Shown one piece after another: positions 8,989 through 15,005 of a stretch of DNA of 64,000 nucleotides (position 1 is its first letter; each line of letters begins with the position of its first letter). Source of the DNA: Escherichia coli (lineage in GTDB: Bacteria; Pseudomonadota; Gammaproteobacteria; Enterobacterales; Enterobacteriaceae); assembly GCF_003790525.1 (NCBI RefSeq), contig NZ_CP033635.1. One strand, given 5' to 3'. A program made the position numbers and the translations under genes. The notes under the pieces were generated by a model. That model did no database searches, had not been told where the DNA came from, and saw nothing but the letters and a program-made list of their open reading frames with translations.

Positions 8989-9315
8989 TTAACCGCGTAG
9001 CTGCACCACGCCGTCTTTCACTCGCGCGTCGTAATGCTTGACGGAAAACTGTTCGTCTTCCATGCACAAGCCGTCGCTTAAGCGAAAACGCTGTTTTTTC
9101 AGCGGGCTGGCGACCCACAGCTCGCCCTGGTGTTCCGCAATCAGCCCGCGTGACAGCACGCTGGACTCGAAGAACGGGTCGATGTTGCTGATCGCAAACA
9201 CCTGGTCGCTGTGATACGGGCGGAAAATTGCTACCTGCTCGTCACCTAACAGCGCGCAGACGCCGGTTTCAGGCAGGATGTCATCGATTTTGCAGATGTC
9301 TTTCCACTGGCTCAT
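8989..9315 (-). CDS. nirD: Nitrite reductase small subunit NirD
   Basis: 108-aa ORF; start overlaps nirB stop. Confidence 0.95.
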   Translation of the reverse strand: MSQWKDICKIDDILPETGVCALLGDEQVAIFRPYHSDQVFAISNIDPFFESSVLSRGLIAEHQGELWVASPLKKQRFRLSDGLCMEDEQFSVKHYDARVKDGVVQLRG

Positions 9316-11855
9316 GCGTTGTCCTCCACCAGAGTTACCGGGATACGTTCATACGGCGTTGCCGGACGGTGCTGTTCGCGCTCTGGCACCATCTGCACGT
9401 TCGGGTCACGCTTGTCGCTGTTGATGAAGTGTTTGAAGCGAGTCTGCGCGGACGGTGTATTGACCGTTTCAGTCCACTCACACACTACCGCTTCACGCAG
9501 GCGCGCCATCTCTTCTTCCAGATGTGCGTTCAGCCCCAGTTTGTCGTCAATGATCACCGCTTTCAGGTAATCGATGCCACCTTCGAGGTTTTCTAACCAC
9601 GGCGCGGTACGCGTCAGTTTGTCGGCAGTACGGATGTAGAACATCATGAAGCGGTCAAGATATTTAATCAGCGTTTCGCGATCGATATCCGCTGCCAGCA
9701 GATCCGCATGACGCGGTTTCATGCCGCCGTTACCGCAAACATACAGGTTCCAGCCTTTTTCGGTGGCGATGATACCCACGTCTTTACCCTGAGCTTCTGA
9801 ACATTCACGGGTACAGCCAGAGACACCGAACTTCATTTTGTGCGGCGTACGGATGCCTTTGTAGCGGTTTTCCAGTTCCACGCCGAGGCCGACGCTGTCG
9901 CCAACGCCGTAGCGGCACCAGGTGCTACCCACGCAGGTTTTCGCCATACGCAGTGCTTTCGCATAGGCATGACCGGTTTCGAAGCCGGCTTCAATCAGCT
10001 GACGCCAGATTTCCGGCAGATCGTCTTTCTGTGCGCCAAACATCGCCAGGCGCTGAGAGCCGGTGATTTTGGTGTAGAGATTAAATTCACGCGCGATACG
10101 ACCTACTGCCATCAGCCCTTCCGGGGTGATTTCACCGCCCGGAGAACGCGGGATCACCGAGTAGGTGCCGTCTTTCTGGATGTTAGCGAGGAAGTTGTCG
10201 TTTGAATCCTGCAGCGGAGTATGTTCCGGCTTCAGAATGTATTCGTTCCAGCAGGAGGCCAGCAGCGAACCGACGGTCGGTTTACAAACTTCACAACCGT
10301 AGCCTTTGCCGTGTTTCGCCAGCAGTTCTTCGAAGGTTTTAATGCCTTCAACGCGGATCAAATGGAACAGTTCCTGACGCGAATAAGCAAAGTGTTCGCA
10401 CAGGTTGTTGTTAACTTCGATGCCCTGTTTCGCCAGTTCCGCGTTCAGTACCTGAGTGACCAGCGGGATACAGCCACCGCAGCCAGTACCCGCTTTGGTT
10501 TCAGCTTTCAGCGCCGCAACGGTGTGGCAGCCTTTGTTGATAGCTGCAATCAGATCGCCTTTGGTGACGTCGAAGCAGGAGCAGATTTGCGCGCTGTCCG
10601 GCAGTTTATCAACACCGATAGACGGCTTACCGCTACCTGAGTGCGCCGGCAGAATCAGAGAATCCGGGTTTTCCGGCAGTTCGATAGCGTTCAGCACCAG
10701 TTGCAGCAGGTTGCCGTAGTCGCTGGTATCGCCCACCAGTACCGCACCGAGCAGGGTTTTGTTGTCTTCGCTGACAATCAGGCGTTTGTAGATCTCTTTG
10801 CTTTCGTCGAGGTAAACGTAGCTACGTGCGCCAGGCGTGCGACCATGCGCATCACCAATACCGCCTACGTCTACGCCCAGCAGTTTCAGCTTAGCGCTAA
10901 GGTCAGCACCTTCAAAGGCGTTTTCGCTACCAAGAATATGGTCAACGGCGACCTGCGCCATTTTGTAGCCTGGTGCTACCAGACCAAATACACGGTTGTT
11001 CCAGCTTGCGCATTCACCGATGGCGTAGATATCCGGATCGGAAGTCTGGCAGGAATCATTGATGACAATACCCCCACGCGGAGCAACGTCCAGACCACAC
11101 TGGGTTGCCAGCTTATCGCGCGGACGGATACCGGTTGAGAAGACGATAAAGTCGACTTCCAGCTCGCTACCGTCGGCAAAACGCATGGTTTTACGCGCTT
11201 CGACACCTTCCTGCACAATCTCAAGGGTGTTTTTGCTGGTGTGAACGCGCACGCCCATACTTTCGATTTTGCGACGCAGCTGCTCGCCACCCATCTGATC
11301 AAGCTGTTCCGCCATCAGCATAGGGGCAAATTCGATAACGTGGGTTTCAATACCTAAGTTTTTCAGCGCGCCAGCGGCTTCCAGACCTAACAGGCCGCCA
11401 CCAACAACGGCACCGCGTTTGCTGCGACGGGCACAGGATTCAATGGCGTTGAGGTCTTCAATGGTGCGATAGACAAAGCAGTCCTGAGTATCAGAACCTT
11501 TGATTGGCGGGATCCACGGGTAGGAACCGGTTGCCATGATCAGCTTGTCATAAAAAACGGTACGTCCGGCGCTGGAGTGAATCACCTTCTCCTGACGGTT
11601 GATGGTGATAGCGCGTTCACCGACCAGAACTTTGATGCCGTGTTTCTCGTAGAAGCCTTCGCGCACCAGCGACAGCTCTTCGGCGGTGTGGTGAGAGAAG
11701 TAAGACGAGAGGTGTACGCGGTCATAAGCGATGCGCGGTTCTTCACAGAAAACGGTAATATCAAAGTTGGCCGCATCAGATTTATCAAGAAGATCTTCGA
11801 TAAAGCGATGGCCGACCATACCGTTACCGATAATTGCGAGTCTGACTTTGCTCAT
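9312..11855 (-). CDS. nirB: NADH-dependent nitrite reductase large subunit NirB
   Basis: 847-aa ORF MSKVRLAIIGNGMVGHRF... Confidence 0.97.
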   Translation of the reverse strand: MSKVRLAIIGNGMVGHRFIEDLLDKSDAANFDITVFCEEPRIAYDRVHLSSYFSHHTAEELSLVREGFYEKHGIKVLVGERAITINRQEKVIHSSAGRTVFYDKLIMATGSYPWIPPIKGSDTQDCFVYRTIEDLNAIESCARRSKRGAVVGGGLLGLEAAGALKNLGIETHVIEFAPMLMAEQLDQMGGEQLRRKIESMGVRVHTSKNTLEIVQEGVEARKTMRFADGSELEVDFIVFSTGIRPRDKLATQCGLDVAPRGGIVINDSCQTSDPDIYAIGECASWNNRVFGLVAPGYKMAQVAVDHILGSENAFEGADLSAKLKLLGVDVGGIGDAHGRTPGARSYVYLDESKEIYKRLIVSEDNKTLLGAVLVGDTSDYGNLLQLVLNAIELPENPDSLILPAHSGSGKPSIGVDKLPDSAQICSCFDVTKGDLIAAINKGCHTVAALKAETKAGTGCGGCIPLVTQVLNAELAKQGIEVNNNLCEHFAYSRQELFHLIRVEGIKTFEELLAKHGKGYGCEVCKPTVGSLLASCWNEYILKPEHTPLQDSNDNFLANIQKDGTYSVIPRSPGGEITPEGLMAVGRIAREFNLYTKITGSQRLAMFGAQKDDLPEIWRQLIEAGFETGHAYAKALRMAKTCVGSTWCRYGVGDSVGLGVELENRYKGIRTPHKMKFGVSGCTRECSEAQGKDVGIIATEKGWNLYVCGNGGMKPRHADLLAADIDRETLIKYLDRFMMFYIRTADKLTRTAPWLENLEGGIDYLKAVIIDDKLGLNAHLEEEMARLREAVVCEWTETVNTPSAQTRFKHFINSDKRDPNVQMVPEREQHRPATPYERIPVTLVEDNA

Positions 11856-11913
11856 TTTTGCCTCGATTTCTTTTCTATTACCGCCTACCTTAACGATTCA
11901 GCAACCCCGCTTA

Positions 11914-11927
11914 TTGATGTAAATCAA
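11914..11927 (-). promoter_or_regulatory. FNR box (TTGAT-N4-ATCAA) of the nirB promoter
   Basis: Perfect TTGATgtaaATCAA palindrome about 60 bp upstream of the nirB start codon. Confidence 0.75.
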
Positions 11928-11940
11928 ATTCACCTTTATA

Positions 11941-11957
11941 TACTCCTTAAGGGGTAT
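11941..11957 (-). promoter_or_regulatory. NarL/NarP 7-2-7 heptamer pair upstream of the FNR box
   Basis: TACTCCT-TA-AGGGGTA inverted heptamers; matches the known nirB promoter architecture. Confidence 0.55.
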
Positions 11958-12116
11958 ATTGCTGATTTGTATAAATTTTCTTAAGTCACGGAATTGTCTG
12001 ACATTTCATGTTTGTACAAAAAACAGACAAATTGAGCGGGTTTATAGAAATAGATGTACGTAGCGCGGTAAGAGAGGAAAAGGCCGGACGACGATAGTGC
12101 CGCCCGGCATGAGCAA

Positions 12117-13298
12117 TTAATGAGAGGTCAGGGTGTTATGCTGACGGTGACGGCTGACGAAACCTAACAGGAAGCACATCACAAAGACGACAGCGTACAG
12201 ACCGTTTGCCGTCAGCAGCGCCGCCTGCGGACCGCTATGTTCAACAATCGGGCCGGTAACCACAAAGGTCAACATAGTACCGATGGTCCCGCAGGTCAGG
12301 ACAAAGTTAACCAGTTTTGGCGACGGTACTTTGGTCTGCTGTGAACCCAAAGTGATGATGGTGGTATAGATCGCGCTGGAGAAGAAGCCCAGGGCGAGAA
12401 TTGACCACGCCATATGTGCCGGTGTTCCGGTGTTAAAGACGTACATCAGAATCGCAGCCAGACCAGCCAGTACGGTCAGAATGCGTTGCAAATCAAAGAA
12501 GCGAAGAATAAAGCTGAACGCCCACATGCCGACCATGTATGACATCCAGAAGTTACTCACCAGCGTGCCCGCGTCGTTCAGGCTCATGCCCAGGCCTTTG
12601 GCATACTCAGGCACCCAGGAGATAAAACCTAACTGACCGAGGATGTAGCACAGTGCCGCAATGGAGAGAAACAGCACGCCGATCCCCCATTTTTCTTTCG
12701 CTACCGGAGCGTCCGTTTTTGGCGCATGTTTACCCAGCGCCGGGAACTCACAGCCGAAGGTCAGAATAAAGATAGCGACGTACACCAGCCCGATGCAGGC
12801 ATAAACCCAGTACCACTCAATGCTGCGCGCCAGCAGAAACGCGGCGATCATTGGGAAAATCATCCCGGCCATACTGAAGAAGGAGTCGGTAAATAACAGG
12901 CGTGAACCGCGCTGACGTCCTTCATACATTTGTGTTACCAGGAATGTACCAATCGACATGGTGATGCCGCTGACCACCCCGAGAATGAACATCGCCGCCG
13001 AGAACAGTGCCAGGCTGTGGCTGAACATCAAACCGGCAACCGCCAGCACCATCAGGAGAAAGCCAAAACGTAACTGCGTTTTCAACGGGACGATTTCCAT
13101 CAGCCAGGCGTTGAGGAAGATAGAGATTAAAATGCCGGCGTTGAGGAAGGTGAAGGTATTACTCATACTGGAAACAGGCAGATTGAAATAATCGGCGATA
13201 TTTCCCATCACCATCCCGGTGACAATAACCAACGCACCGGTCAGTGCGTAGGAGAGAAAGCTAATCCATGTGAGCTTGATGCGATTGCTGTTAGTCAT
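12117..13298 (-). CDS. tsgA: MFS transporter TsgA
   Basis: 393-aa [24 protein letters not shown]..., multi-TM. Confidence 0.9.
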
Positions 13299-14413: not shown

Positions 14414-15005
14414 ATTCGGCGAAGGGCGCGATCCGTATCTTTATCCTGGCCTTGATATCATGCGTAACCGGCTGAACATCCACCAGCAGCAGCGGCTGGA
14501 ACAGGCCGCTTACGAAATGACGGCGCTGCGTGCTGCGACCATTGAGCTTGGTCCGCTGGTGCGCGGTTTACCGCATTTGCGCACTATCCATCGCCAGCTG
14601 TATCAGGATATTTTCGACTGGGCGGGGCAACTGCGTGAAGTTGATATTTATCAGGGCGATACGCCGTTCTGCCACTTTGCTTATATCGAAAAAGAGGGCA
14701 ATGCCCTGATGCAGGATCTGGAGGAAGAAGGTTATCTGGTTGGCCTGGAGAAAGCGAAGTTCGTCGAGCGGCTGGCGCATTACTATTGTGAAATCAACGT
14801 GCTGCATCCCTTCCGGGTGGGAAGTGGTCTGGCACAGCGGATCTTCTTCGAGCAACTGGCGATTCATGCCGGATATCAACTGAGCTGGCAGGGTATCGAA
14901 AAAGAGGCCTGGAATCAGGCAAATCAGAGTGGGGCAATGGGGGATCTCACCGCGCTGCAGACGATATTTAGCAAAGTGGTAAGCGAAGCCGGGGAATCTG
15001 AGTAA
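14403..15005 (+). CDS. fic: Fic-domain protein (cell filamentation protein Fic)
   Basis: 200-aa ORF with FIC-like motif [12 protein letters not shown]. Confidence 0.9.

What the first reader, a model, noticed from the sequence alone, without database searches (positions are those of the whole stretch)
11856..12116. nirB promoter keeps the canonical FNR plus NarL/NarP architecture
A perfect FNR palindrome TTGATGTAAATCAA (11914-11927) lies upstream of nirB, with an inverted heptamer pair TACTCCT-TA-AGGGGTA (11941-11957) further upstream. This is the well-characterised anaerobic and nitrate/nitrite-responsive arrangement. It is not novel, but it is a clean sequence-level confirmation.
Basis: partly seen in the sequence, partly recalled or inferred. 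Interest (0 to 1): 0.2.

Follow-up and report, generated by a model that had tools for sequence, protein, structure and literature searches.

The report
Textbook E. coli nirB promoter
This stretch is the well-studied switch that turns on the E. coli nitrite reductase genes when oxygen is absent and nitrate or nitrite is present; it is intact and ordinary here, differing from the laboratory strain by one harmless-looking base in the nitrate-regulator site.

Summary
The window is an E. coli chromosome: 601 bp around the site are 100% identical to strain SMS-3-5 and others. nirB lies on the minus strand (9312-11855) and tsgA lies upstream of it (12117-13298).

In nirB sense, the intergenic region holds a NarL/NarP 7-2-7 site, TACCCCT-TA-AGGAGTA (11956..11941). 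An FNR box, TTGATTTACATCAA (11927..11914), follows after 13 nt. Each pattern occurs only once in the 64 kb, against 0.00 and 0.08 expected by chance.

Placing the FNR centre at the published -41.5 puts +1 at 11879. That is 24 nt before the ATG, as published. The -10 hexamer TAAGGT then falls at -13..-8 and the NarL/NarP centre at the published -69.5.

From -122 to the ATG the sequence equals K-12 except for one base. Position -72 is C here and A in K-12, and both fit the TACYYMT consensus. The window's 81-mer around that site, which carries C, is an exact match in 3769 of 5425 E. coli records. K-12's 81-mer is exact in 1198.

The same spacing and the same distance to nirB recur in 40 other species from about 20 enterobacterial genera.

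Small corrections: the heptamer pair ends at 11956, not 11957, and only the FNR half-sites are palindromic. The feature is already known and of low interest.

The parts
9312..11855 (-). nirB coding sequence (847 codons plus stop), the first gene controlled by the promoter
   Evidence: ORF list. The DNA is 100% identical to stretches annotated as nirB in RefSeq E. coli genomes.
11856..11879 (-). Inferred 24-nt leader, from +1 (A at 11879) to the base before the ATG. It includes the Shine-Dalgarno sequence GAGG.
   Evidence: +1 is inferred from the FNR centre at -41.5 (PMC3688515). It agrees with the published start 23/24 nt before the ATG (PMC4216584). The leader is identical to K-12. Mean identity to the window over -7..+24 is 0.94 across 34 Enterobacteriaceae.
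11850..11864 (.). Fis-like 15-mer centred at +23 (GAGGCAAAAATGAGC)
   Evidence: One mismatch to GNNNAWWWWWTNNNC. The position matches the Fis II site as I recall it from Browning et al. 2008; that paper could not be read here. The sequence is identical to K-12.
11887..11892 (-). -10 hexamer TAAGGT (-13..-8)
   Evidence: Named as the -10 element in PMC4216584. It is identical to the window in all 34 Enterobacteriaceae aligned. No consensus sigma-70 promoter is detected, as expected for an activator-dependent promoter.
11889..11902 (-). Cra/FruR-like box GCTGAATCGTTAAG, centred at -16.5
   Evidence: One mismatch to RSTGAAWCSNTHHW. The block -23..-8 is identical to the window in all 34 Enterobacteriaceae, and no column of it was forced by the search pattern. 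The Cra role is recalled from Tyson et al. 1997, which is cited in PMC5434802 but was not read.
11914..11927 (-). FNR box TTGATTTACATCAA, centred at -41.5 (class II position)
   Evidence: Identical to K-12. FNR ChIP-seq peak and -41.5 position for nirBDC-cysG in PMC3688515.
11941..11956 (-). NarL/NarP 7-2-7 site TACCCCT-TA-AGGAGTA, centred at -69.5. K-12 has TACCCAT in the distal heptamer (position -72, window base 11951).
   Evidence: Position -69.5 from PMC10853779. The window's 81-mer carrying C is exact in 3769 E. coli records and K-12's in 1198. Across genera, A and C each occur in 17 of 34 sequences.
11963..11968 (-). Conserved AAATCA block (-89..-84) inside the region of the published IHF I site at -88
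   Evidence: Identical to the window in all 34 Enterobacteriaceae, and not forced by the search pattern. IHF at -88, overlapping the NarL site, is stated in PMC10853779. No match to WATCAANNNNTTR with one mismatch or fewer was found, so assigning it to IHF is an inference from position.
11969..11983 (.). Fis-like 15-mer centred at -97
   Evidence: One mismatch to GNNNAWWWWWTNNNC. The position matches Fis III as I recall it from Browning et al. 2008, which was not read.
12014..12028 (.). Fis-like 15-mer centred at -142 (GTCTGTTTTTTGTAC). It differs from K-12 (GTCTATTTTTTGCAC) at -145 and -137.
   Evidence: The K-12 version fits the pattern with no mismatch and the window version with one. The position matches Fis I as I recall it from Browning et al. 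2000/2008.
12083..12108 (-). Terminator-like hairpin plus T-run after tsgA. It would insulate the nirB promoter from read-through.
   Evidence: 10 pairs, 8 of them G-C, followed by CTTTTCCTCT.
12117..13298 (-). tsgA, the co-directional upstream gene that bounds the regulatory region

Best explanation
This is the E. coli nir operon promoter (pnir, driving nirBDC-cysG). It is a class II FNR-dependent sigma-70 promoter.

Without oxygen, the FNR dimer binds TTGATTTACATCAA centred at -41.5. It recruits RNA polymerase to a promoter that has the weak -10 hexamer TAAGGT and no usable -35 element.

FNR-dependent transcription is held down by nucleoid proteins: IHF around -88, and Fis around -142, -97 and +23.

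With nitrate or nitrite, phosphorylated NarL or NarP binds as a dimer to the 7-2-7 site centred at -69.5. This displaces IHF and relieves the repression.

Shown here: the sequence, its positions, its identity to the characterised K-12 promoter, and its conservation. Taken from the literature: protein binding, the anti-repression mechanism and the transcription start. Inferred: that the single -72 C/A difference is functionally neutral.
For: Identity of the locus: 100% match over 601 bp to annotated tsgA-nirB regions of E. coli chromosomes.

Identity to K-12: the sequence equals K-12 from -122 to the ATG except at -72.

Motif uniqueness: each motif occurs once in 64 kb, against 0.08 and 0.00 expected.

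Geometry: the centres are 28 bp apart, as are -41.5 and -69.5. The inferred +1 is 24 nt before the ATG, matching the published 23/24 nt. FNR ChIP-seq places a single site at -41.5 for nirBDC-cysG.

Mechanism: NarL at -69.5 displaces IHF bound at -88 and removes Fis repression.

Conservation: in a genome-wide pattern scan, 40 further species (plus one other E. coli) from about 20 Enterobacterales genera have the pair with exactly 13 nt between the motifs. In 42 of the 43 sequences the nirB ATG lies 57-58 nt after the FNR box. Unforced blocks, namely the -10/Cra box, AAATCA at -89..-84 and the leader, are invariant or nearly so.

Nucleoid-protein sites: Fis-like 15-mers fall at +23, -97 and -142.
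Against: Nothing contradicts the explanation.

Limits: no binding or expression data exist for this strain. The transcription start is inferred from K-12 by sequence identity.

The cross-species loci were selected by the motif pair itself, so they show how widely the architecture occurs, not what fraction of nirB promoters keep it.

The primary papers on the Fis, IHF and Cra sites could not be read here.
Confidence: 0.96

Rival explanations
1. The architecture is canonical, but the natural variants in this strain change the quantitative response. The -72 C makes the distal heptamer TACCCCT. The -145 G and -137 T lie in the Fis-like site at -142. These could give tighter NarL/NarP binding or weaker Fis repression than in K-12.
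For: -72 is the only difference from K-12 between -122 and the ATG. TACCCCT is the narG -89 heptamer, which was used as a palindrome to make a high-affinity NarL reference site (PMC4549865).

The C variant makes the two heptamers more symmetric: they differ at one position instead of two.

The K-12 Fis I 15-mer fits GNNNAWWWWWTNNNC with no mismatch, whereas the window's has one mismatch, at -145.

There is a precedent at the sister promoter pnrf, where natural sequence divergence in EHEC abolishes Fis-dependent nutrient repression (PMC5434802).
Against: Both A and C fit the TACYYMT consensus. Across 34 Enterobacteriaceae the position is A in 17 and C in 17, which is the pattern of a neutral position.

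Fis sites are degenerate, and G is tolerated at that position in the older Fis consensus (my recollection of Finkel and Johnson 1992).

No measurement exists for either variant.
Confidence: 0.15
2. The two motifs are chance matches with no regulatory role in this genome.
For: A single exact FNR consensus occurred by chance in 8 of 100 shuffles of the window.
Against: The 7-2-7 pattern never occurred in the shuffles.

The pair sits at fixed spacing and at a fixed distance from nirB in more than 40 species.

The sequence is that of the experimentally dissected K-12 promoter.
Confidence: 0.01

Closest known systems
E. coli K-12 nir operon promoter (pnir; Busby/Cole laboratory: Jayaraman 1987, Tyson 1993/1994, Browning 2000-2008)
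   Same: Same locus. The FNR box, -10 hexamer, leader, Cra-like box, proximal heptamer and IHF I region are identical, and the spacing is identical. From -122 to the ATG, 146 of 147 bases are the same.
   Different: -72 is C instead of A, giving TACCCCT rather than TACCCAT. There are eight further substitutions upstream of -122, at -123, -137, -145, -153, -178, -187, -190 and -224. Two of these lie inside the Fis-like 15-mer at -142.
E. coli nrf operon promoter (pnrf)
   Same: FNR at -41.5, a single NarL/NarP 7-2-7 site further upstream, repression by IHF and Fis, and relief of that repression when NarL/NarP displace IHF (PMC5434802).
   Different: The NarL/NarP site is at -74.5 rather than -69.5. 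It controls a different operon, the periplasmic nitrite reductase, and the flanking sequences differ.
NarL-activated yeaR and ogt promoters
   Same: They use the same 7-2-7 recognition element (PMC10853779).
   Different: There NarL sits at -43.5/-44.5 and activates RNA polymerase directly without FNR. At pnir it sits at -69.5 and acts by anti-repression.

Membership tests
Class II FNR-activated promoter | FNR consensus box TTGAT-N4-ATCAA | tested here: met
   Exact match at 11914-11927, the only one in 64 kb.
Class II FNR-activated promoter | Box centred about 41.5 bp upstream of the transcription start | tested here: inconclusive
   No transcription start data exist for this strain. By identity with K-12, the published start 23/24 nt before the ATG puts the box at -41.5 or -40.5. 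PMC3688515 lists -41.5.
Class II FNR-activated promoter | FNR occupancy and FNR-dependent anaerobic expression | not testable with these tools
   Shown for K-12 by ChIP-seq and expression data (PMC3688515). Only sequence identity links that result to this strain.
NarL/NarP 7-2-7 site | Two TACYYMT heptamers in inverted orientation separated by 2 bp | tested here: met
   TACCCCT-TA-AGGAGTA at 11956..11941. Both heptamers fit the consensus with no mismatch, and the pattern is unique in the window against 0.00 expected.
NarL/NarP 7-2-7 site | Binding of phospho-NarL and NarP, and nitrite/nitrate induction dependent on the site | not testable with these tools
   Published for K-12 (Tyson 1993/1994, cited; PMC10853779). 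The -72 C variant itself has not been tested, as far as the searchable literature shows.
pnir nucleoprotein architecture (NarL anti-repression of IHF/Fis) | NarL site at -69.5, 28 bp upstream of the FNR centre and abutting an IHF site at -88 | tested here: met
   The centres are at 11948.5 and 11920.5, 28 bp apart. The -100..-78 region is identical to K-12. AAATCA at -89..-84 is invariant in 34 Enterobacteriaceae.
pnir nucleoprotein architecture (NarL anti-repression of IHF/Fis) | Fis sites flanking the promoter (about -142, -97, +23) | tested here: inconclusive
   Fis-like 15-mers with one mismatch are centred at exactly those positions. The motif is degenerate, however: a fourth match lies at -47. 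The published positions are from memory. The -142 site carries two substitutions relative to K-12.

The most novel reading that the evidence does not exclude
The laboratory K-12 promoter carries a minority version of the NarL/NarP site region: its 81-mer with A at -72 is exact in about 22% of complete E. coli genome records. Most E. coli, including this strain and O157:H7, carry C at -72, which gives a more symmetric site whose distal heptamer equals the high-affinity narG -89 heptamer. In addition, this strain's lineage (ST648/SMS-3-5 type) has a variant Fis-like site at -142. If these changes alter NarL/NarP affinity or Fis repression, the nitrite and nutrient responses measured in K-12 would not represent the species. 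Something similar was found for pnrf in EHEC.
Probability: 0.15. Interest if true: 0.3.

Novelty: already known. Interest (0 to 1): 0.08.

Why it matters
It matters little. The finding confirms at sequence level that a textbook promoter is intact in this E. coli strain.

Three by-products have modest value:

1. The reference K-12 NarL/NarP site at pnir is a minority allele within the species.
2. The exact 28-bp FNR-to-NarL geometry, and the 57-58-nt distance from the FNR box to the nirB ATG, are fixed across about 20 enterobacterial genera. The region upstream of about -100 drifts even within E. coli.
3. The same two-motif layout, with one extra base of spacing, precedes an uncharacterised DGC-domain gene in Rheinheimera and Alishewanella relatives.

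Tried and rejected
Consensus sigma-70 promoter scan of 11800-12200: it found nothing. This is expected for an activator-dependent promoter and is not evidence against it.

Rfam scan of 11600-12400 on both strands at E-value up to 1: no RNA family. No riboswitch or sRNA competes as an explanation.

Primary pnir papers: J Bacteriol 2008 by DOI and by PMC2580697, and NAR 1989 as PMC331540, are not held. The Fis, IHF II and Cra positions therefore rest on my memory plus the motif scan.

IHF consensus WATCAANNNNTTR: no match with one mismatch or fewer in the intergenic region. The IHF I assignment rests on the published -88 position and on the invariant AAATCA block.

Other genes as targets: there is no divergent gene. 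tsgA is co-directional and is followed by a terminator-like hairpin.

Chance: rejected.

Literature on the -72 variant: a search for TACCCAT/TACCCCT together with NarL found no study of the natural pnir variant.

Full report
**What is in the sequence.**
The largest ORF next to the finding is on the minus strand, 9312..11855 (847 aa). A 393-aa ORF lies upstream of it on the same strand at 12117..13298. A 601-bp query across the finding is 100% identical to many E. coli chromosomes, such as SMS-3-5, AR_0077 and ST648-type strains. In those genomes the two genes are annotated nirB and tsgA. The query matches 5425 of 5426 complete E. coli genomes at 95% identity or more.

**Check of the observation.**
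- TTGATGTAAATCAA is at 11914-11927, as stated.
- TACTCCT-TA-AGGGGTA is at 11941-11956, so the stated end of 11957 is one base too far.
- In nirB sense these read TACCCCT-TA-AGGAGTA (11956..11941), 13 nt, then TTGATTTACATCAA (11927..11914).
- TTGAT-N4-ATCAA occurs once in the 64 kb, against 0.08 expected.
- TACYYMT-NN-AKRRGTA occurs once, against 0.00 expected.
- The phrase 'perfect palindrome' applies only to the two 5-base half-sites.
- In the intergenic region, the only TACYYMT heptamers with no mismatch are the two in the pair. No second FNR-like box with fewer than two mismatches exists there.

**Geometry.**
- The motif centres are at 11920.5 and 11948.5, 28 bp apart.
- Placing the FNR box at the published -41.5 makes +1 the A at 11879. 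The -41.5 position comes from the Myers et al. 2013 ChIP-seq table entry for nirBDC-cysG (PMC3688515).
- The -10 hexamer TAAGGT then lies at -13..-8, the ATG at +25, and the NarL/NarP centre at -69.5.
- The literature agrees. NarL is at -69.5, clashing with IHF at -88 (PMC10853779). The transcription start is 23 or 24 nt before the ATG, the -10 hexamer is TAAGGT, and the NarL element lies at -79..-60 (PMC4216584).
- A terminator-like hairpin for tsgA lies at 12108..12083. No divergent gene could claim the sites.
- The simple sigma-70 scan finds no consensus promoter. This fits an activator-dependent promoter whose -35 region is occupied by FNR.
- Rfam finds nothing on either strand.

**Comparison with the characterised K-12 promoter.**
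An alignment of 291 bp with MG1655 shows 9 differences.
- Eight lie at or upstream of -123: at -123, -137, -145, -153, -178, -187, -190 and -224.
- From -122 to the ATG there is one difference. Position -72 is C here and A in K-12, so the promoter-distal heptamer is TACCCCT instead of TACCCAT.
- Both versions satisfy TACYYMT. TACCCCT equals the narG -89 heptamer, which was made into a palindrome as a high-affinity NarL reference site (PMC4549865).
- The 81-mer from -32 to -112 with C is an exact match in 3769 of 5425 E. coli records, including O157:H7. The K-12 81-mer is exact in 1198. K-12 therefore carries a minority version.
- The next 81 bp upstream (-102..-182) are far more variable. The window's version is exact in only 109 records and K-12's in 1239.

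**Related sequences elsewhere.**
I scanned one genome per species (100,044 species) for TTGAT-N4-ATCAA, an 11-15 nt gap, then TACNNNT-NN-ANNNGTA.
- 41 of the loci have a NirB homologue (66-99% identity to the window's protein) starting just downstream. One is another E. coli. The other 40 come from about 20 genera: Citrobacter, Klebsiella, Enterobacter, Kluyvera, Kosakonia, Pluralibacter, Phytobacter, Pseudocitrobacter, Cedecea, Buttiauxella, Shimwellia, Trabulsiella, Superficieibacter, Pantoea, Erwinia, Mixta and Pectobacterium, among others.
- All 41 have a gap of exactly 13 nt, although 11-15 was allowed.
- Counting the window and K-12 as well, the ATG lies 57-58 nt after the FNR box in 42 of 43 sequences.
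- I aligned the 34 sequences whose NirB is at least 86% identical to the window's and that had at least 220 nt of upstream sequence; this set includes the window and K-12. Several columns that the search pattern did not force are invariant: GCTGAATCGTTAAGGT (-23..-8), AAATCA (-89..-84) and most of the leader.
- Mean identity to the window sequence falls to 0.52 around -142 and to 0.41 further upstream.
- Position -72 is A in 17 sequences and C in 17. This is what a position that is free within the consensus looks like.
- Because the loci were selected by the motif pair, these data show how widespread and rigid the arrangement is. They do not show what fraction of nirB promoters keep it.

**Accessory sites.**
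- A motif scan finds a Cra-like box, GCTGAATCGTTAAG, centred at -16.5, with one mismatch to RSTGAAWCSNTHHW.
- Fis-like 15-mers (one mismatch or fewer to GNNNAWWWWWTNNNC) are centred at +23, -97 and -142, plus one at -47.
- These centres coincide with the Cra, Fis II, Fis III and Fis I positions as I remember them from Tyson et al. 1997 and Browning et al. 2000-2008. I could not open those papers, so this agreement is a recollection supported by a degenerate motif scan.
- The window's Fis I 15-mer (GTCTGTTTTTTGTAC) differs from K-12's (GTCTATTTTTTGCAC) at -145, a consensus position, and at -137.

**How it works.**
This account comes from the literature and is carried over to this strain by sequence identity.
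- Anaerobic FNR binds at -41.5 and activates RNA polymerase.
- IHF and Fis suppress that activation.
- Nitrate- or nitrite-activated NarL or NarP binds the 7-2-7 site at -69.5, displaces IHF and relieves the repression.
- The sister promoter pnrf works the same way, with its site at -74.5.

**Verdict.**
The only non-textbook points are the within-consensus -72 C/A polymorphism, with K-12 carrying the minority version, and the lineage-specific substitutions in the Fis-like site at -142. I rate a measurable functional consequence at about 15%. A precedent exists at pnrf in EHEC (PMC5434802).

Noticed in passing
L016:5401-5444 (Alishewanella longhuensis). Also L015, L019, L026, L033, L045, L046, L050, L070, L076, L079, L111, L115, L118 and L122.: In Rheinheimera, Alishewanella, Arsukibacterium, Alkalimonas and 'Chromatiaceae' genomes, a strongly palindromic 7-2-7 site (for example TACCTCTGAAGAGGTA) lies 14 nt before an exact FNR-type box (TTGATTTATATCAA). 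That is one base more than at nirB. In the 12 loci with enough downstream sequence, the pair sits 29-96 nt upstream of a roughly 125-aa DGC-domain protein (PF08859). In L016 this gene sits in a cluster with NnrS, an MFS (NarK-like) transporter, a NorR-like GAF/sigma-54 activator, a YtfE/ScdA di-iron protein and ThiF. It looks like a nitrate/NO-responsive promoter of the same design in front of an uncharacterised gene.
   Followed up: partly
window 11951 (position -72 of pnir): The K-12 reference version of the NarL/NarP site region (TACCCAT) is the minority in E. coli: its 81-mer is exact in 1198 records. The window's version (TACCCCT) is exact in 3769 of 5425 records, including O157:H7 strains. 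The GTDB representative E. coli SCPM-O-B-8794 has a third form, TACCACT.
   Followed up: partly
window 11981-12061 (pnir -102..-182): The distal part of the regulatory region, which holds the Fis-like site at -142, is much more polymorphic within E. coli than the core. The window's 81-mer is exact in only 109 records (ST648/SMS-3-5-type strains). Megablast could not even seed a match in more than half of the genomes.
   Followed up: partly
window 11700-12300: The 601-bp nirB promoter query also hit 3 places on plasmid records, and one of the 5426 complete E. coli genomes had no match at all. I examined neither.
   Followed up: no
window 14641-14654, and 1878, 49771, 55293, 56903: Five further FNR-like boxes with one mismatch occur elsewhere in the window, for example TTGATATTTATCAG at 14641-14654, which overlaps the ORF annotated fic in SMS-3-5. 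I did not examine them, and they are probably chance matches.
   Followed up: no
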